Shown: positions 11,340-16,118 of the stretch, piece after piece
How positions within the stretch are numbered: the first letter of the stretch is position 1
How the letters are laid out: each line of letters starts with the position of its first letter
DNA from: a virus
Taxonomy: Duplodnaviria > Heunggongvirae > Uroviricota > Caudoviricetes
DNA: 30,548 bases
Direction: 5' to 3' (one strand)
Virus record (IMG/VR): IMGVR_UViG_3300045988_118519
Translations under genes and position numbers: made by a program
The notes under the pieces: generated by a model
What the model was told of the DNA's origin: nothing
The model's input: only the letters and a program-made list of their open reading frames with translations
Database searches by the model: none

Positions 11340-12335
11340 GTGACCGTGAGAGCACTACTGACCCCTGAAATTGCCCCGCGTATGGGGATCGTATTGTTCA
11401 GGCCAGGTTCAGAGCTGATGCCCCTGTTTATGCAGGGGCGTGTCCTGCTGGAGCCTGAGCCGGAACGTTATTCATCTTTCGCCAGTGGTGCCGTTCCGGC
11501 GGCATCACAACCGCTGGCGGATGATCCTGCCGTTCGGGCCGTGTTCCGCAATGAGGCAGTGATCCGTCGTGCTGGTGGAGTGGAATGTCTTGAACGCTGG
11601 TTACTTCGTGAAAAAGGTTGCCAGTGGCCTCATTCCGACTGGCACAGCGAGAACATGACCACAATGCGACACACGCCGGGCGCAATCCGTCTGTGCTGGC
11701 ACTGCGATAACCAGCTGCGCGATCAGTTCACGGAACGGCTGGAATCAATGGCAACGGATAACTGTACCCGCTGGGTGTTGTCTGTTGTGCGTCGGGATCT
11801 CGGTTTTGATGACAGTCACGTTGTGACAATGCCGGAACTGTGCTGGTGGCTGATTCGTAATGACCTGGCGGATGCCTTACCGGAAAGTGCAGCCCGTAAG
11901 GCACTGAGATTACCGAAGCCTGTTGTGCCGTCTGTCACCCGGGAAAGTGACCTTGTGCCTTCGGTTCCTGCCACCAGCATCATCCAGGATAAAGCGAAAA
12001 AGGTGCTGGCGCTGAAAGTGGATCCAGAGTCGCCGGAGTCTTTTATGTTACGCCCAAAACGTCGCCGCTGGGTTAATGAAAAGTACACGCGCTGGGTTAA
12101 GACACAGCCGTGTGCATGTTGTGGAAAGCCTGCTGATGATCCCCACCACCTGATAGGCCATGGTCAGGGTGGAATGGGTACAAAAGCGCATGACCTCTTT
12201 GTGTTGCCTTTGTGCAGAAAGCATCACGACGAGCTGCATGCGGATACCGTGGCATTTGAAGAGAAGTATGGCTCCCAACTGGAGCTGATATTTCGTTTTA
12301 TCGATCGTGCGCTGGCAATTGGCGTGCTGGCCTGA
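11340..12335 (+). CDS. DUF968 protein (YdfU-like), 331 aa
   Basis: C-terminal Cys/His motif [41 protein letters not shown]; start codon uncertain. Confidence 0.55.
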
Positions 12336-12352
12336 TTTTGTGGAGAAAGTTG

Positions 12353-12718
12353 ATGCGTGATATTCAAATGGTTCTTGAACGTTGGGGGGCATGGGTGGCA
12401 AATAATCACGAGGATGTCACCTGGTCGTCTATTGCTGCAGGATTTAAAGGACTAATCCCTTCAAAAGTAAAATCCCGCCCGCAATGTTGTGACGATGACG
12501 CGATGATCATTTGTGGGTGCATGGCTCGCCTGAAAAAGAACAACAGCGATTTGCACGATTTATTAGTGGATTATTATGTAGGTGGTATGACGTTTATGGC
12601 GCTTGCCCGTAAACATGGGCGTTCTGATTGCTGGGTTGGGCGTTTATTGCAAAAGGCTGAAGGTGTAGTTGATGGCATGTTAATGATGTTAGAAATTGAG
12701 CTAGAGATGGATCGTTAG
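12353..12718 (+). CDS. Late-gene antiterminator Q-like protein (phage 82-type family), 121 aa
   Basis: ATG at 12353 with GGAGAAAG RBS; position just before the late region; Cys-rich centre; family from recall. Confidence 0.6.
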
Positions 12719-12760
12719 AAGACCTCTTATTGAGGGGGTAATTGAATCAGTTTAATGTGT

Positions 12761-12795
12761 GGGGAGTCGATTTATTCTCCCCATTTTATTTAATT
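12761..12795 (+). terminator. Hairpin GGGGAG-N10-CTCCCC followed by T-rich tract
   Basis: Read directly; T-tract is interrupted. Confidence 0.35.
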
Positions 12796-12802
12796 AGTTT
12801 AC

Positions 12803-13249
12803 TTAAGGTTTTAATTCATCAAGACGTTGTTGGATAGTGTTTTTGCTTGCGTTGTCTGTTATAGCCATTTGTTGTACTTGCCCCATTGCCATTTGAGTTT
12901 CCATCCACATATCGGCCCACACTTTTGTATCGTTATTAACTTGAGCGATAGTAAATCTGACTTTTGATACCGGGGTTGTTGAATAGGCATTTCCGATTAA
13001 CATTTGTCCAAAAACAGCAGAGCCGCCTTCCAGTTCTTTACCACATATAACACTGCTGTTATCCGCGTTGTAAATTATCAACCCTCTACTATTGCAGTAA
13101 TTCACAAGGGCATCTTTGACTTTATCTTTTGTCGTATTTTGATAAACCCCCTCAGGTTTTCCTGATTGAGTTTTCTTTATCAATGGTACGGAAGAAGTAC
13201 AACCTGAAATGATAGTTGCGCTAAGTAATAGTACAGTCATTTTATTCAT
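12803..13249 (-). CDS. Lipoprotein of unknown function, 148 aa (cargo gene)
   Basis: Signal peptide with lipobox MNKMTVLLLSATIISGC; opposite strand to all flanking phage genes; AT-rich. Confidence 0.7.
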   Translation of the reverse strand: MNKMTVLLLSATIISGCTSSVPLIKKTQSGKPEGVYQNTTKDKVKDALVNYCNSRGLIIYNADNSSVICGKELEGGSAVFGQMLIGNAYSTTPVSKVRFTIAQVNNDTKVWADMWMETQMAMGQVQQMAITDNASKNTIQQRLDELKP

Positions 13250-13314
13250 GTTTCTTATCCATTGCTAAGGGTATACCCACACAATTATTTTTATTGGAGA
13301 TGAATAATCAACCG

Positions 13315-13342
13315 TTTACAATCGTAAAAAATCAAATATGCT
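13315..13342 (+). promoter_or_regulatory. Candidate late promoter pR'
   Basis: -35 TTTACA (13315-13320), 16-bp spacer, -10 TATGCT (13337-13342). Confidence 0.4.
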
Positions 13343-13371
13343 GTTAAGAGTGGTTACTTCGCCACACAACT

Positions 13372-13398
13372 TAAACCCGCCGCTGAGCGGTTTTTTTT
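13372..13398 (+). terminator. Candidate tR' terminator (Q target), giving a short 6S-like RNA of about 50 nt
   Basis: Hairpin AAACCCGC-CGCUGAGCGG followed by UUUUUUUU (13391-13398). Confidence 0.5.
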
Positions 13399-13496
13399 GT
13401 ACCTGTAAACTTGGTGCAGTACAGTAAACACGCTGGTGGTCGTGAATACTGACTTTTTATCTTGCTGGCTTTTTAGACAAGAGTTATTGGTATGTC

Positions 13497-13724
13497 ATGT
13501 TAACCAGAAGGGAAAAAGACATGCTAAAACAGCAAGATATGACAGAAACCGCCGCCGCAGTCCTTCATTTCTTACCTGCTGACAAGTGGGTAACGCCACG
13601 CATGATGACGAGAACTACCGGAGTAAGCGAAGCCCGGTGCCAGTTAATACTGACTCAGTTAGTTCTGGCGGGTCTGGCGAAGGATAACGGCGGGTACGGG
13701 AATAAATTCAGACGCTGCCAGTAA
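13497..13724 (+). CDS. Small wHTH-like protein of unknown function, 75 aa (start may be 13521)
   Basis: ORF just downstream of the tR' candidate; wHTH-like stretch WVTPRMMTRTTGVSEARCQLILTQLVLAGLA. Confidence 0.45.
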   Translation: MLTRREKDMLKQQDMTETAAAVLHFLPADKWVTPRMMTRTTGVSEARCQLILTQLVLAGLAKDNGGYGNKFRRCQ

Positions 13725-13874
13725 TGGCGGTTTCCTGCTGTGAAAATGGGCGGCTGGTGGGTGTTGGTAGCACCTGCCAGCCATTCGCTCATGCTTACTG
13801 GTCACAAGCGAACCACGGCCCACTGCTTTAGCGCAAAAGCAGAGTGAGCCTACCAGAGTTACGCTTACTGATCC

Positions 13875-14927
13875 ATGAAAAATACTGTAAAAATAAACAG
13901 TGTTGATTTAATCAACGCTGATTGCCTGCATTTTATTCAGTCCCTGCCTGATGATTCCATTGACCTGATTGTTACCGATCCGCCGTACTTCAAGGTGAAA
14001 CCCAACGGCTGGGACAATCAGTGGAAAGGGGACGAAGATTACCTTAAGTGGCTGGACCACTGTCTGGCCCAGTTCTGGCGGGTGTTAAAACCTGCCGGAA
14101 GCCTTTACCTGTTCTGTGGGCATCGCCTGGCATCTGATATTGAGATCATGATGCGTGAACGTTTCAACGTGCTTAACCATATCATCTGGGCGAAGCCGTC
14201 CGGACGTTGGAATGGGTGTAATAAAGAAAGTCTGCGTGCATATTTTCCTGCCACAGAGCGCGTTCTGTTTGCTGAACATTACCAGGGGCCATATCGCGGC
14301 AAAAGTGACGGCTATGCGGCAAAAGAAAGGGAACTCAAACAGCACATAATGGCACCGCTGATTTCGTATTTCAGGGATGCTCGTGCCGAACTGGGTATAA
14401 CGGCAAAACAAATTGCCGAAGCCACAGGTAAGAAAAATATGGTTTCCCACTGGTTTGGTGCCAGTCAGTGGCAGTTGCCGAATGAGGCTGACTACCGGAA
14501 GTTACAGGCACTGTTTTCCCGTATAGCGGCAGAGAAGTTTCAGGAACAACAACTGGAACAACCACACCACCAGCTGGTGGCATCTTATGATTCACTGAAT
14601 CGCAAATATTCTGAATTGCTGGATGAGTTTAAATCTCTCCGGCGCTATTTCTCCGTATCAGTCTCCGTGCCTTATACCGATGTCTGGATGCATAAACCCG
14701 TTCAGTTCTACCCGGGGAAACATCCGTGTGAGAAACCGGCGGATATGCTCAGGCAAATAATCAATGCCAGTAGTCGACCAGGTGATCTGGTTGCTGATTT
14801 TTTTATGGGATCCGGTTCCACAATAAAAGCAGCAATGGCGCTGGGGCGTCGGGCCTTAGGTGTTGAGCTTGAGTCAGAGCGGTTTAACCAGACAGTGAAA
14901 GAGATAAACGAGCTGGTGGGGAAATAA
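13875..14927 (+). CDS. Beta-class DNA methyltransferase (N6-adenine or N4-cytosine), 350 aa
   Basis: Motif IV TDPPYF near N-terminus and motif [10 protein letters not shown] near C-terminus (beta-class order) with a long central insert. Confidence 0.85.
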
Positions 14928-14933
14928 TCTGGT

Positions 14934-14956
14934 GGCCACGTCAGGTGGCCTTTTTA
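14934..14956 (+). terminator. Rho-independent terminator after the methyltransferase gene
   Basis: GGCCAC-gtcag-GTGGCC hairpin followed by TTTTTATTT. Confidence 0.6.
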
Positions 14957-14994
14957 TTTCCATTACACAGCACCCGCATCTGCGAGGTGGGGTT

Positions 14995-15210
14995 ATGAAA
15001 TCCATGGATAAGTTAACAACGGGTGTCGCCTATGGCACCTCAGCAGGTAGTGCCGGGTACTGGTTTTTACAGTTGCTCGATAAAGTCACGCCCTCACAGT
15101 GGGCGGCAATAGGTGTGCTGGGTAGTCTGGTATTTGGCTTGCTGACGTATCTGACAAACCTTTATTTCAAGATTAAAGAAGACAAGCGTAAGGCTGCACG
15201 GGGAGAGTAA
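14995..15210 (+). CDS. S21-type pinholin with dual-start motif, 71 aa
   Basis: [31 protein letters not shown]...[22 protein letters not shown] closely matches phage 21 S21 as I recall it, including MKSM dual start. Confidence 0.85.
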
Positions 15211-15214
15211 TTCA

Positions 15215-15529
15215 ATGACTCAAAACTATGAAGTGATTGTGAAAGGGATCCGCAATTTTGAGAATAAAGTTACGGTAACTTTAGCGTTACGGGACAAAAA
15301 ACGCTTTGACGGTGAAATTTTTGACCTGGACATCTCGCTGGACCGTGTTGAAGGTGCCGCGCTGGAGTTTTATGAGGCAGCAGCCAGAAGGAGCATCAGA
15401 CAGGTCTTCCTGGATGTTGCTGCCGGGTTATGTGAAGGGGACGAGCTGTTGCCAGAAACGCGCCCCTGTTCAAAGGCGCGGTATACCATAAAAATTAACA
15501 GTTCTGATAACTCGATTACGGGTTGTTAG
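15215..15529 (+). CDS. Hypothetical cytoplasmic protein inserted between holin and endolysin, 104 aa
   Basis: ATG with GGGGAGAG RBS; no TM segment; not recognised. Confidence 0.6.
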   Translation: MTQNYEVIVKGIRNFENKVTVTLALRDKKRFDGEIFDLDISLDRVEGAALEFYEAAARRSIRQVFLDVAAGLCEGDELLPETRPCSKARYTIKINSSDNSITGC

Positions 15530-15584
15530 CTTTTTGCAGTTGGCTTTCCAGTATCTTTCATTGGTAGCATCCTGATAAATATCC

Positions 15585-16118
15585 ATGAGCGCAAAAATCA
15601 AATACGGCCTGTCAGCTGCTGTTCTGGCGCTGATTGCTGCAGGCGCGTCTGCTCCTCAAATACTTGACCAGTTTCTGGATGAAAAAGAGGGTAACCACAC
15701 TACGGCATACCGCGATGGTTCCGGTATATGGACCATCTGTCGTGGTGCCACAATGGTGGATGGTAAGCCCGTCATACCGGGAATGAAGCTGTCGAAGGAA
15801 AAATGCGACCAGGTTAACGCTATTGAACGTGATAAGGCGCTGGCATGGGTGGAGCGCAATATTAAAGTACCTCTGACCGAACCACAGAAAGCGGGTATAG
15901 CGTCATTTTGTCCCTATAACATTGGCCCCGGTAAGTGTTTCCCGTCGACGTTTTATAAGCGGCTGAATGCCGGTGATCGTAAGGGCGCATGCGAGGCGAT
16001 TCGCTGGTGGATAAAAGATGGTGGGCGCGATTGCCGCATACGTTCAAATAACTGCTATGGACAGGTTATTCGTCGTGACCAGGAAAGCGCATTAGCCTGT
16101 TGGGGGATAGATCAGTGA
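15585..16118 (+). CDS. SAR endolysin (GH24 lysozyme with signal-anchor-release N-terminus), 177 aa
   Basis: Ala/Gly-rich weakly hydrophobic N-term [15 protein letters not shown]; catalytic E-D-T in [22 protein letters not shown]. Confidence 0.85.

What the first reader, a model, noticed from the sequence alone, without database searches (positions are those of the whole stretch)
13497..14956. Terminator-bounded late-region module: small wHTH protein plus beta-class DNA methyltransferase
A 350-aa methyltransferase (DPPY then FxGxG order, long central insert) lies between the tR' candidate and the holin, preceded by a 75-aa wHTH-like ORF and followed by its own terminator. No restriction endonuclease partner is visible, so it looks like an orphan methyltransferase. 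It may be anti-restriction or epigenetic cargo, or the visible half of a defence module whose partner lies elsewhere.
Basis: partly seen in the sequence, partly recalled or inferred. Interest (0 to 1): 0.55.

Follow-up and report, generated by a model that had tools for sequence, protein, structure and literature searches.

The report
Prophage M.EcoGII-type methylase with RNA leader
This is a very common prophage cassette that encodes a close relative of M.EcoGII, an enzyme that methylates adenines in any sequence context; it is ordinary as an enzyme, but a conserved folded RNA in front of the gene, apparently undescribed, probably helps keep this toxic enzyme switched off until the phage is about to burst the cell.

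Summary
A small ORF and a 350-aa beta-class methyltransferase gene (13875-14927) lie between two intrinsic terminators (13379-13399 and 14934-14958). They sit downstream of Q and upstream of an S21-type holin.

The methyltransferase is not an unknown orphan with a motif to discover. [quoted passage not shown] Identical proteins occur in phages cdtI and Ayreon. The cassette is present in 1473 of 5426 complete E. coli genomes. No nuclease partner was found.

The small ORF is real, but it starts at 13521 and encodes 67 aa. It models as a minimal winged helix. It is optional: about a quarter of related loci lack it.

The new element is the 135-nt spacer (13740-13874), a conserved structured RNA leader. 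Its sequence is better conserved than the coding sequence. It shows compensatory base changes and two mutually exclusive conserved pairings. The region just upstream of the methyltransferase AUG is paired and has no Shine-Dalgarno sequence. It matches no Rfam family. Vibrio and Shewanella relatives carry a Com-like zinc-ribbon gene in front of the methyltransferase, as in the phage Mu com-mom operon.

Verdict: a known enzyme family in a late, Q-gated anti-restriction cassette, with a candidate new translational riboregulator.

The parts
12338..12718 (+). Late-gene antiterminator Q (context, not part of the mobile cassette)
   Evidence: Pfam Phage_antitermQ PF06530, E 2e-51. It is 50% identical to the Q of phage 1720a-02, which lies directly upstream of the same cassette.
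13315..13342 (+). Candidate late promoter PR' (TTTACA-16-TATGCT)
   Evidence: Consensus scan. The -10 element and the initial transcribed block GTTAAGAGTGGTTACTTCGCCACAC are conserved only among phages with this Q type (alignment A7). Function is inferred, not shown.
13377..13399 (+). Upstream intrinsic terminator (tR'-like); left boundary of the mobile cassette
   Evidence: Hairpin GCCGC-TGA-GCGGT followed by T8. Conserved in all relatives. Homology with phages that carry other Q genes begins at window ~13374. Annotated as a terminator in Ayreon and SfV.
13400..13520 (+). Conserved 5' region of the small ORF, containing a Chi site (13432-13439) and the small ORF's Shine-Dalgarno (AAGGG, 13508-13512)
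   Evidence: Long invariant blocks in six phages with different Q genes. Chi search. No significant fold was detected (z = -0.5).
13521..13724 (+). Small winged-helix protein gene (67 aa; the ORF as listed starts at 13497)
   Evidence: PHROG 331, E 3e-26. 150 database homologues with a conserved N-terminus (MLKQQDMTETA) and RCQLILTQL helix. AF2 pLDDT 87, H-H-H-beta-beta topology. Foldseek finds only generic winged-helix matches. It lies directly upstream of the methyltransferase gene in phages of seven genera.
13714..13731 (+). Hairpin P0 with the small ORF's stop codon in its loop. It is followed by a weak U tract here and by a strong one (a full intrinsic terminator) in many relatives.
   Evidence: Fold at -11.9 kcal/mol. 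A hairpin of varying sequence sits at the same place in most Enterobacteriaceae loci, for example GCCTTCAGTCCTGAAGGC-TTTTTTATTT and CCTCGCTTCGGCGGGG-TTTTTCTTTT. It is absent in Providencia and Proteus.
13740..13874 (+). Conserved structured RNA leader of the methyltransferase gene.

Helices:
- P1: 13746-51 x 13787-92
- P2: 13752-63 x 13771-82
- Alt: 13784-89 x 13807-12
- P3a: 13800-04 x 13869-73
- P3b: 13806-10 x 13862-66
- H_a: 13747-51 x 13818-22
- P4: 13817-23 x 13844-50
- P5: 13824-29 x 13836-41
- P6: 13843-49 x 13863-69
   Evidence: - nhmmer and a covariance model find it directly upstream of the methyltransferase gene in 64 or more loci of Enterobacterales, and weakly in Vibrio and Gilliamella.
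- Its nucleotide identity equals or exceeds that of the coding sequence in 12 of 13 comparisons.
- 90.5% of cells are paired against 27-42% in the slid controls, and 12 pairs show double changes.
- Alt helix pair 13786-13810: CG 24, UA 13, AU 10, UG 4.
- The alternative fold is equally supported.
- No Rfam match.
- 1-nt indels rule out coding.
13875..14927 (+). M.EcoGII-family beta-class N6-adenine DNA (and RNA) methyltransferase gene, 350 aa
   Evidence: Pfam PF01555, E 2e-42. It is 81% identical over its full length to M.EcoGII, 89% to Anc291 and 71% to SUPREM, all experimentally non-site-specific. It is 100% identical to the methyltransferases of phages cdtI and Ayreon.
14934..14958 (+). 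Downstream intrinsic terminator; right boundary of the cassette (~14989)
   Evidence: GGCCAC-GTCAG-GTGGCC followed by TTTTTATTT. z = -5.1. Annotated as a terminator in Ayreon and SfV. Homology with SfV, which has a different holin, ends at ~14989.
14996..15210 (+). S21-type pinholin (context)
   Evidence: Pfam Phage_holin_2_1, E 4e-35, covering residues 26-88 of the listed ORF.

Best explanation
The cassette (window ~13374-14989) is a mobile late-operon insert of lambdoid phages. It encodes an M.EcoGII-family methyltransferase that puts N6-methyl groups on adenines regardless of sequence context.

In the lysogen (inferred from the lambda paradigm). Transcripts from the late promoter stop at the tR'-like terminator at 13379-13399. 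Any leak-through is limited further by the hairpin or terminator after the small ORF, and by a folded 5' leader that pairs the 10-14 nt in front of an AUG that has no Shine-Dalgarno sequence.

After induction (inferred). Q makes RNA polymerase terminator-resistant, so the small ORF, leader, methyltransferase gene and lysis genes are transcribed together late. The enzyme then methylates replicating phage DNA just before packaging. Progeny genomes would therefore enter the next host protected against restriction enzymes that are blocked by adenine methylation.

The leader (inferred from covariation). It has two mutually exclusive conserved pairings, so it probably works as a translational switch or throttle.

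The 67-aa winged-helix protein (guessed). It is an optional accessory. The most likely role is a factor acting on this leader or on methyltransferase expression, analogous to Com in the Mu com-mom operon.

Status of the steps. Shown here or in the literature: family identity, non-specificity of close relatives, silence and toxicity of M.EcoGII, the cassette anatomy, and conservation and covariation of the leader. Not shown: Q-gated timing, anti-restriction benefit, translational control by the leader, and any role for the winged-helix protein.
For: Identity
- 281/349 identical to M.EcoGII, and 89%, 87% and 71% identical to reconstructed ancestors that were all active and non-site-specific.
- Catalytic motifs and motif order are intact.
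- A 93%-identical M.EcoGII-type gene sits in the same Q - small ORF - leader - methyltransferase context in Stx2a phages.

Silence and toxicity
- Murray et al. 2018 (PMC5778455) and the EcoSal review (PMC12707154).

Context
- The cassette lies downstream of Q and a terminator and upstream of holin or stx in every locus inspected.
- Terminators flank it.
- No nuclease partner was found.
- It occurs in 1473 of 5426 complete E. coli genomes.

Leader
-.
- No Shine-Dalgarno sequence precedes the AUG, and a conserved CUGAUC(C/U)AUG is paired in either fold.

Precedent for small-protein control of toxic late adenine modifiers
- com plus the non-specific methyltransferases hin1523 and hia5 (PMC3299994).
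- Com-like ORFs directly upstream of EcoGII-like genes in Vibrio and Shewanella; two of them pass the Pfam cut-off for PF10122.
Against: - This allele has not been assayed. A 19% divergence from M.EcoGII could in principle alter specificity.
- I found no paper showing that virions of any phage carrying this gene are hypermethylated, or that the gene raises plating efficiency on restricting hosts.
- The promoter call is a weak consensus match (9 of 12).
- The leader structure is not resolved. Two folds fit about equally, several helices are invariant and therefore uninformative, and part of the covariation signal comes from one deep split (Enterobacteriaceae against Morganellaceae).
- The winged-helix gene is missing from 17 of 64 loci that keep the leader and methyltransferase gene, and from phage LLS. 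It therefore cannot be required.
- Heavy m6A would also expose the phage to m6A-dependent type IV nucleases.
Confidence: 0.8

Rival explanations
1. A sequence-specific orphan methyltransferase that marks a defined motif, for epigenetic regulation of phage or host genes or protection against one particular restriction system.
For: Most PF01555 enzymes are sequence-specific. The nearest solved structures are specific enzymes: M.RsrI, MboIIA, CcrM and a GTWWAC-type enzyme. This allele differs from M.EcoGII at 19% of positions, including in the recognition domain.
Against: Enzymes on both sides of it in the family tree (M.EcoGII at 81%, Anc291 at 89%, SUPREM at 71%) are non-site-specific. The recognition domain aligns without gaps. 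The nearest curated specific family, PRK11524 (YhdJ), scores 110 bits against a cut-off of 292.
Confidence: 0.08
2. One half of a restriction-modification or other defence system whose nuclease lies elsewhere in the prophage or host.
For: PADLOC type II methyltransferase models match strongly (E 3e-152). An HNH-like DUF968 gene lies upstream of Q. phiP27 has a GIY-YIG gene between Q and the cassette.
Against: No nuclease or defence hit was found among the window proteins tested. The cassette boundaries are the two terminators, and it recombines into phages with unrelated neighbours. A non-specific methyltransferase cannot provide self/non-self discrimination. DUF968 is a standard lambdoid gene; I did not check whether it also occurs in phages that lack the cassette.
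Confidence: 0.03
3. The conserved spacer is conserved for DNA-level reasons (Chi site, promoter or operator for the winged-helix protein, recombination joint) rather than as an RNA structure.
For: The 5' arm of P2 is a Chi octamer in Enterobacteriaceae, and this phage is strongly Chi-enriched (21 sites against 1.2 expected). The P2 arms form a 12-bp inverted repeat that could be an operator. Several helices are invariant.
Against: G-U pairs are frequent on the + strand only, for example GU 46 / GC 16 and GU 37 / AU 24. Compensatory changes keep P2 in Morganellaceae, where Chi is lost. The Alt helix shows three Watson-Crick types plus a wobble at one pair between two non-palindromic segments 20 nt apart. 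The element is kept in loci that lack the winged-helix gene.
Confidence: 0.12
4. The small winged-helix protein is a DNA-binding transcription regulator (C-protein-like or TrmB/MarR-like) of the cassette or of other phage genes, unrelated to the RNA leader.
For: NCBI names some homologues TrmB-family regulators. The weak Pfam hits are to MarR_2 and TrmB. The fold matches TrmBL2, IclR and NsrR DNA-binding domains. The protein is basic.
Against: At 67 aa it has no dimerisation or ligand domain. No Pfam threshold is met. Whole-domain fold matches are just as good to nucleic-acid-structure binders (Z-alpha, SelB mRNA-binding domain). It sits in a Q-driven operon where promoter control would have little to act on.
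Confidence: 0.3

Closest known systems
M.EcoGII / M.EcoGI (E. coli O104:H4 prophages; Murray et al. 2018, PMC5778455)
   Same: Beta-class order with the same length. 81% identity over the full length. Prophage-borne. A 93%-identical M.EcoGII-type gene has the same Q - small ORF - leader - methyltransferase layout. Silence in the lysogen is expected.
   Different: This allele has not been assayed. It belongs to the cdtI/mEp460/SfV sub-type, and its downstream neighbour is a holin rather than tRNAs and stx2. The regulatory anatomy (terminators, winged-helix gene, RNA leader) is not mentioned in the M.EcoGII papers I read.
Phage Mu com-mom operon
   Same: A toxic, late, lysogen-silent adenine-modifying anti-restriction enzyme. 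A very small protein is encoded just upstream. An RNA structure covers the translation start. Vibrio and Shewanella relatives of this methyltransferase carry a genuine Com-like zinc ribbon at that position.
   Different: Mom is not a methyltransferase. Here the small protein is a winged helix, not a zinc ribbon. Transcription is gated by Q antitermination, not by Dam/OxyR and protein C. Control by the small protein is only a hypothesis here. Details of the Mu mechanism come from PMC3299994 and from general knowledge.
Hin1523 / Hia5 / Nma1821 non-specific adenine methyltransferases of Mu-like prophages (Drozdz et al. 2012, PMC3299994)
   Same: Phage-borne, near non-specific m6A methyltransferases that replace mom behind a com gene. 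They are undetectable in lysogens.
   Different: They are alpha-class (reverse motif order, as stated in PMC5778455), have unrelated sequences, and occur in Mu-like rather than lambdoid context.
C-protein-controlled restriction-modification systems
   Same: A small helix-turn-helix gene lies upstream of a methyltransferase gene.
   Different: No endonuclease is present. The small protein is a winged helix, not an Xre-type C protein. There is no C-box arrangement. It is dispensable in many relatives.
Lambdoid 'morons' in the Q-to-S region (for example stx and bor-type inserts)
   Same: A discrete insert with terminator boundaries between tR' and the lysis genes, exchanged among phages with different Q and S genes.
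   Different: It has no recognisable promoter of its own, so it depends on Q read-through rather than being expressed from the prophage.

Membership tests
Beta-class N6/N4 amino-methyltransferase (Pfam PF01555) | Catalytic DPPY motif N-terminal to the AdoMet-binding FxGxG motif, with the recognition domain between them | tested here: met
   DPPY at residues 35-38 and FMGSG at 310-314. Pfam match to residues 29-341, 145.9 bits against a cut-off of 26.7.
M.EcoGII family (non-specific adenine methyltransferases) | Close full-length sequence relationship to M.EcoGII, including the recognition domain (residues 160-237) | tested here: met
   281/349 identical with 2 gaps. 89% identical to Anc291. 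The reference sequences were read by machine from a supplementary PDF, so the percentages are approximate.
M.EcoGII family (non-specific adenine methyltransferases) | Methylation of adenine in any sequence context (DNA, and RNA) | not testable with these tools
   Shown for M.EcoGII, Anc291 and SUPREM. Inferred for this allele.
M.EcoGII family (non-specific adenine methyltransferases) | Prophage location; silent in the lysogen | tested here: inconclusive
   The location in a lambdoid late operon behind Q and a terminator is shown. Expression cannot be measured here.
Type II restriction-modification system | A cognate restriction endonuclease gene next to the methyltransferase gene | tested here: not met
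   Neighbours are a winged-helix ORF, a holin, a lipoprotein-like ORF and Q. PADLOC and Pfam give no nuclease among the proteins tested.
C-protein (controller) regulated methyltransferase | An Xre-type HTH controller protein upstream | tested here: not met
   No HTH_3/Xre hit. The model is a winged helix.
Winged-helix DNA/RNA-binding domain (MarR/TrmB-like superfamily) | H1-H2-H3 followed by a beta-hairpin wing | tested here: met
   AF2 model: H4-17, H26-33, H37-49, E53-55, E63-65, pLDDT 87. TM 0.6-0.85 to winged-helix domains. Sequence-family thresholds are not met (MarR_2 E 0.045, TrmB E 0.12).
Z-alpha (Z-DNA/Z-RNA binding) domain | Conserved Asn/Tyr in the recognition helix and Trp in the wing (from general knowledge) | tested here: not met
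   The best whole-domain fold match is TM 0.82-0.85. The recognition helix reads EARCQLILTQLVLAGL and has no Asn or Tyr. This is fold resemblance only.
com-mom type translational control | A Com zinc-ribbon protein encoded immediately upstream of the modification gene | tested here: not met
   In the window the upstream protein is a winged helix. It is met in relatives: PF10122 at 33.3 and 24.6 bits against a cut-off of 22.9 in Shewanella L081 and Vibrio L072.
com-mom type translational control | An RNA structure that sequesters the translation start of the modification gene | tested here: inconclusive
   Conserved pairings reach to 2-6 nt upstream of the AUG in both candidate folds, and there is no Shine-Dalgarno sequence.
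Any Rfam 15 RNA family | A covariance-model match at or near the gathering score | tested here: not met
   No match at E <= 1 in 12300-15600. Only noise (<= 13 bits) at E <= 10 in 13690-13900.
Intrinsic (rho-independent) terminator | A GC-rich hairpin followed by a U tract | tested here: met
   13379-13399 and 14934-14958. The P0 hairpin at 13714-13731 has only a weak U tract in the window but a full one in relatives.

The most novel reading that the evidence does not exclude
The 135-nt leader is a new class of bistable riboregulator dedicated to non-specific adenine methyltransferases. An effector selects between a fold that buries the translation start and one that frees it. Candidate effectors are the co-encoded winged-helix protein (or the Com-like protein in Vibrio), the methyltransferase itself, or S-adenosylmethionine. 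Under this model the toxic enzyme is translated only in a narrow late window. The winged-helix protein would then be an RNA-binding functional analogue of Mu Com, built on a different fold.
Probability: 0.35. Interest if true: 0.65.

Novelty: new member of a known kind. Interest (0 to 1): 0.42.

Why it matters
M.EcoGII is a widely used reagent for chromatin and RNA footprinting, yet in the papers read here its natural regulation and its benefit to the phage are only assumed. This window shows the native arrangement. The gene sits behind Q and a terminator, inside a portable cassette carried by about a quarter of complete E. coli genomes and, in Stx phages, immediately upstream of the Shiga toxin genes.

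The conserved structured leader gives a concrete and testable answer to how a lethal, indiscriminate enzyme is kept off and then released. The recurrent pairing with a tiny nucleic-acid-binding protein points the same way: a winged helix here, and a Com-like zinc ribbon in Vibrio. If the leader is a genuine switch, it adds a new RNA motif and a second, independently evolved com-mom-like circuit. If it is not, the finding remains a routine member of a known methyltransferase family.

Tried and rejected
- **M.EcoGIX.** I first recalled M.EcoGIX as the phage enzyme. The literature shows it is a plasmid-borne single-strand-specific methyltransferase, so I dropped that lead.
- **tRNA and Rfam searches.** No tRNA was found. 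Rfam gave nothing across the region or on the spacer alone.
- **RNAalifold on the plain MAFFT alignment.** It gave a poor consensus of 14 pairs because of 1-nt register shifts. I replaced it with helices derived from base-pair probabilities, a covariance model and explicit pair counts.
- **Leader peptide.** The invariant AUG at 13746 opens a 7-aa ORF (MGGWWVL) in most relatives and a 33-aa ORF here. The length and sequence are not conserved, the Trp codons are simply the Chi octamer, and there is no Shine-Dalgarno sequence. Rejected.
- **Pseudoknot between the P2 loop (UUGGU) and ACCAA.** It is not present in most sequences. Rejected.
- **Mutual-information scan for tertiary pairs.** It was dominated by the clade split. 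It was useful only in pointing to the Alt helix, which I then tested separately.
- **Viral-contig scan.** It returned only 99-100% identical copies and added no diversity.
- **Z-alpha reading of the small protein.** This is fold resemblance only; the signature residues are absent.
- **Second leader-like hit in Trabulsiella L014.** It is a degenerate partial copy of the 5' half, not evidence for a second regulated gene.
- **Literature on in-phage function.** Searches for direct evidence that EcoGII-type genes hypermethylate virion DNA, or for a described RNA at this position, found nothing.
Full report
**What is in the window.** The window is a lambdoid prophage with the usual gene order: Ea22-like, CI-type repressor, CII, Rha/Ash, replication genes, RusA, KilA-N, DUF968, Q, then lysis and terminase genes. 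The stretch around the finding reads as follows.
- Q lies at 12338-12718.
- A reverse-strand lipoprotein-like ORF lies at 12803-13249.
- A promoter-like site lies at 13315-13342.
- A hairpin plus T8 terminator lies at 13379-13399.
- The small ORF follows, listed at 13497-13724.
- A 150-nt spacer separates it from the 350-aa ORF at 13875-14927.
- A strong terminator lies at 14934-14958.
- An S21-type holin follows, with its real start at 14996.

**The methyltransferase.**
- It matches Pfam N6_N4_Mtase over nearly its full length (E 2e-42).
- DPPY lies at residues 35-38 and FxGxG at 310-314, which is the beta-class order.
- The nearest solved structures are other beta-class enzymes and match only in the catalytic core.
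- The decisive comparison is with M.EcoGII. Its sequence is printed in Supplementary Table S1 of PMC11551740. The window protein is 281/349 (81%) identical with two gaps.
- It is 89%, 87% and 71% identical to the reconstructed ancestors Anc291, Anc289 and Anc284/SUPREM.
- All the ancestors methylated DNA and RNA. M.EcoGII, Anc291 and SUPREM showed no discernible motif.
- These reference sequences were read by machine from a PDF, so the percentages are approximate.
- Murray et al. showed that M.EcoGII methylates adenine in any context, is prophage-borne, is not expressed in the native lysogen, and is deleterious when expressed. Reviews repeat this and group it with Mu Mom.
- A protein 100% identical to the window protein is encoded by phages cdtI and Ayreon, with near-identical ones in mEp460 and SfV (orf48).
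- The cassette matches 1473 of 5426 complete E. coli genomes, with up to 8 places per genome.

**The cassette and its boundaries.**
- Megablast against phage genomes shows that in phages with a different Q (Ayreon, mEp460, cdtI, SfV) the homology begins at window ~13374. That is exactly at the upstream terminator.
- Homology ends at ~14989-15000, just before the holin.
- Ayreon and SfV annotate terminators at both ends.
- In Stx2c, Stx2a and Stx2e phages the same unit lies between Q and the tRNA-stx genes.
- The unit is therefore a portable, terminator-bounded insert in the Q-dependent late operon.
- No nuclease or defence partner was detected among the window proteins scanned with Pfam and PADLOC.

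**The small ORF.**
- Homologues begin at the conserved MLKQQDMTETA, which is the ninth codon of the listed ORF. A conserved AAGGG lies 8 nt upstream. The product is therefore 67 aa, from 13521.
- It belongs to PHROG 331, of unknown function, and has 150 homologues in the large protein database.
- The homologues fall into two sequence types that recombine.
- AlphaFold2 gives a confident minimal winged helix (pLDDT 87).
- Foldseek finds only generic winged-helix matches at E ~4e-3. The best whole-domain superpositions are to Z-alpha domains, but the signature residues are absent.
- All six phage loci inspected, from Escherichia, Hafnia, Morganella and Citrobacter phages, have it immediately upstream of the methyltransferase gene; tblastn also finds it in Shigella, Providencia and Klebsiella phages.
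- It is nevertheless absent from 17 of 64 genomic loci that keep the methyltransferase gene and leader, and from phage LLS.
- It is found without an intact methyltransferase gene in only two phage records, both apparently rearranged.
- It is thus an accessory to the methyltransferase, not a requirement.

**The spacer is a structured RNA.**
- The distance from the small-ORF stop to the methyltransferase start is 138-153 nt in every phage examined. The sequence there has long invariant blocks.
- A species-level genome scan with the methyltransferase alignment returned 80 loci from Enterobacterales, Vibrionales, Shewanella, Psychromonas and Gilliamella.
- nhmmer, and then a covariance model, found the element directly upstream of the methyltransferase gene in all but two of the complete Enterobacterales loci, and more weakly in four Vibrio loci and one Gilliamella locus.
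- Its nucleotide identity to the window equals or exceeds that of the coding sequence in 12 of 13 comparisons, for example 90% against 73%. It is far above that of the small ORF.
- One-nucleotide indels are scattered through it, so it is not coding.
- On a plain MAFFT alignment of 63 distinct sequences, a five-helix model has 90.5% of cells paired, against 27-42% when partners are slid by 1-3 columns. Twelve pairs and 67 cells show changes on both sides, against a shuffle mean of 25.7 (0 of 500 shuffles reached the observed value).
- On the model-fitted alignment the figures are 92.5%, 21 pairs and 107 cells. That alignment leans towards the model.
- G-U pairs are common on the + strand, so the RNA is read in the sense direction.
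- Hairpin P2 keeps its pairing through wholesale sequence change in Providencia, Proteus and Serratia.

**Two competing pairings in the leader.**
- The strongest single signal is a helix I had not modelled at first: UUCGCU (13784-89) with AGCGAA (13807-12).
- One pair in it occurs as C-G 24, U-A 13, A-U 10 and U-G 4. Another occurs as U-A 46 and C-G 15. Overall 87% of cells are paired, against 48% or less in the slid controls.
- A second complete fold built around it is about as well supported as the first: 89.1% paired, 14 pairs with double changes. It also contains a unique compensatory double change in Mixta L028 within two otherwise invariant columns.
- The minimum-free-energy fold of the window sequence switches between the two folds depending on the flanks given.
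- In both folds the 10-14 nt before the AUG are paired, and the conserved CUGAUC(C/U)AUG has no Shine-Dalgarno sequence.
- No Rfam family matches.
- I read this as a bistable translational leader. The effector is unknown.

**A hairpin over the small ORF's stop codon.** A hairpin (P0, 13714-13731) holds the small ORF's stop codon in its loop. In many relatives it is a full intrinsic terminator. In others it is the only thing between tR' and the leader. In Providencia and Proteus it is missing.

**Link to com-mom.**
- In Vibrio and Shewanella relatives (50-58% identical methyltransferases), a 36-55-aa CxxC...CxxC ORF lies directly upstream of, or overlaps, the methyltransferase start.
- Its best Pfam family is Zn_ribbon_Com, the Mu Com family. 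Two of the six ORFs pass the curated cut-off (33.3 and 24.6 bits against 22.9).
- In four of these loci the leader RNA lies upstream of the Com-like ORF. In L073, whose sequence I read, its 3' arm covers that ORF's AUG.
- Drozdz et al. documented com genes in front of unrelated, alpha-class, non-specific adenine methyltransferases at the mom position of Mu-like prophages, and proposed Com-type control.
- The recurrent pairing of an indiscriminate adenine modifier with a tiny upstream nucleic-acid-binding protein and an RNA structure at the start site is the basis for my hypothesis about the winged-helix protein. That hypothesis is untested.

**Mechanism proposed.**
- Shown: family identity, cassette anatomy, leader conservation and covariation, and, from the literature, the non-specificity, toxicity and lysogenic silence of M.EcoGII.
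- Inferred from the lambda paradigm: the late promoter is constitutive, its transcripts stop at 13399 in the lysogen, and Q-modified polymerase reads through all three hairpins after induction. The enzyme would then appear together with the lysis and packaging proteins and methylate concatemeric DNA before packaging.
- Inferred from the RNA analysis: translation is throttled or switched by the leader.
- Speculative: who flips the switch.

**Verdict.** The finding is real but largely already explained. It is an M.EcoGII-family cassette, extremely common, and already present in sequenced phages. The proposed lysogen-against-cured methylome test would mislead. The added value is the apparently undescribed regulatory anatomy, above all the structured leader.

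Noticed in passing
whole window; in the cassette 13432-13439, 13753-13760, 14567-14574 (-), 14573-14580, 14912-14919: The window holds 21 Chi octamers (GCTGGTGG), 17 of them on the + strand, against 1.2 expected by chance. Five fall in the 1.6-kb cassette, and one forms the 5' arm of leader hairpin P2. This fits the 'no Rec module, high Chi' class of lambdoid phages described by Zheng et al. 2025. Their phage LLS also carries the leader and methyltransferase gene.
   Followed up: partly
window 12803-13249 (- strand): A 148-aa lipoprotein-like ORF (signal peptide with Cys, PHROG 3152, no Pfam hit) is inserted in reverse orientation between Q and the candidate late promoter. Other phages carry different inserts at the same spot: a GIY-YIG gene in phiP27 and two reverse ORFs in Stx2a_WGPS2.
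   Followed up: no
window 13343-13399: The short transcript predicted from the late promoter to the terminator (~50 nt, two hairpins) is conserved among phages with this Q type. By position it would correspond to lambda 6S RNA and to the StxS small RNA of Stx phages. That comparison is from memory and was not checked.
   Followed up: no
window 11340-12335: A DUF968 protein with an HNH-like C-terminus lies directly upstream of Q. A ~300-340-aa ORF also lies directly upstream of Q in six of the related phage loci inspected; it is named DUF968 or HNH endonuclease in phiSTEC1575-Stx2k and Stx2a_WGPS2 and was not checked in the other four. Any functional link to the methyltransferase was not examined.
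   Followed up: no
L014 (Trabulsiella odontotermitis) 2005-2119: A second, degenerate copy of the 5' half of the leader (P0-P1-P2, 30 bits) lies about 900 nt upstream of the full leader, in front of an unrelated 160-aa ORF. It is probably a recombination remnant.
   Followed up: partly
L170 (phage phiSTEC1575-Stx2k) 1801-2872: The winged-helix gene and the 5' half of the leader (46 bits) are kept, but the methyltransferase gene is replaced by an unrelated 237-aa helix-turn-helix protein upstream of the tRNAs and stx2k.
   Followed up: partly
window 13869-13873, and alignment A4: A GATC (Dam site) is almost invariant 2 nt before the methyltransferase AUG, and a second GATC or GGTC forms its pairing partner at 13800-13804. 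Whether Dam methylation of the DNA has any role, as it does at the Mu mom promoter, is unknown.
   Followed up: no
L002 (SfV) compared with the window: SfV shares 98% of the methyltransferase sequence and a near-identical leader with the window, but only 51% of the small protein. A recombination joint therefore lies between the small ORF and the leader. Database proteins P0052-P0057 are mosaics of the two small-protein types.
   Followed up: partly
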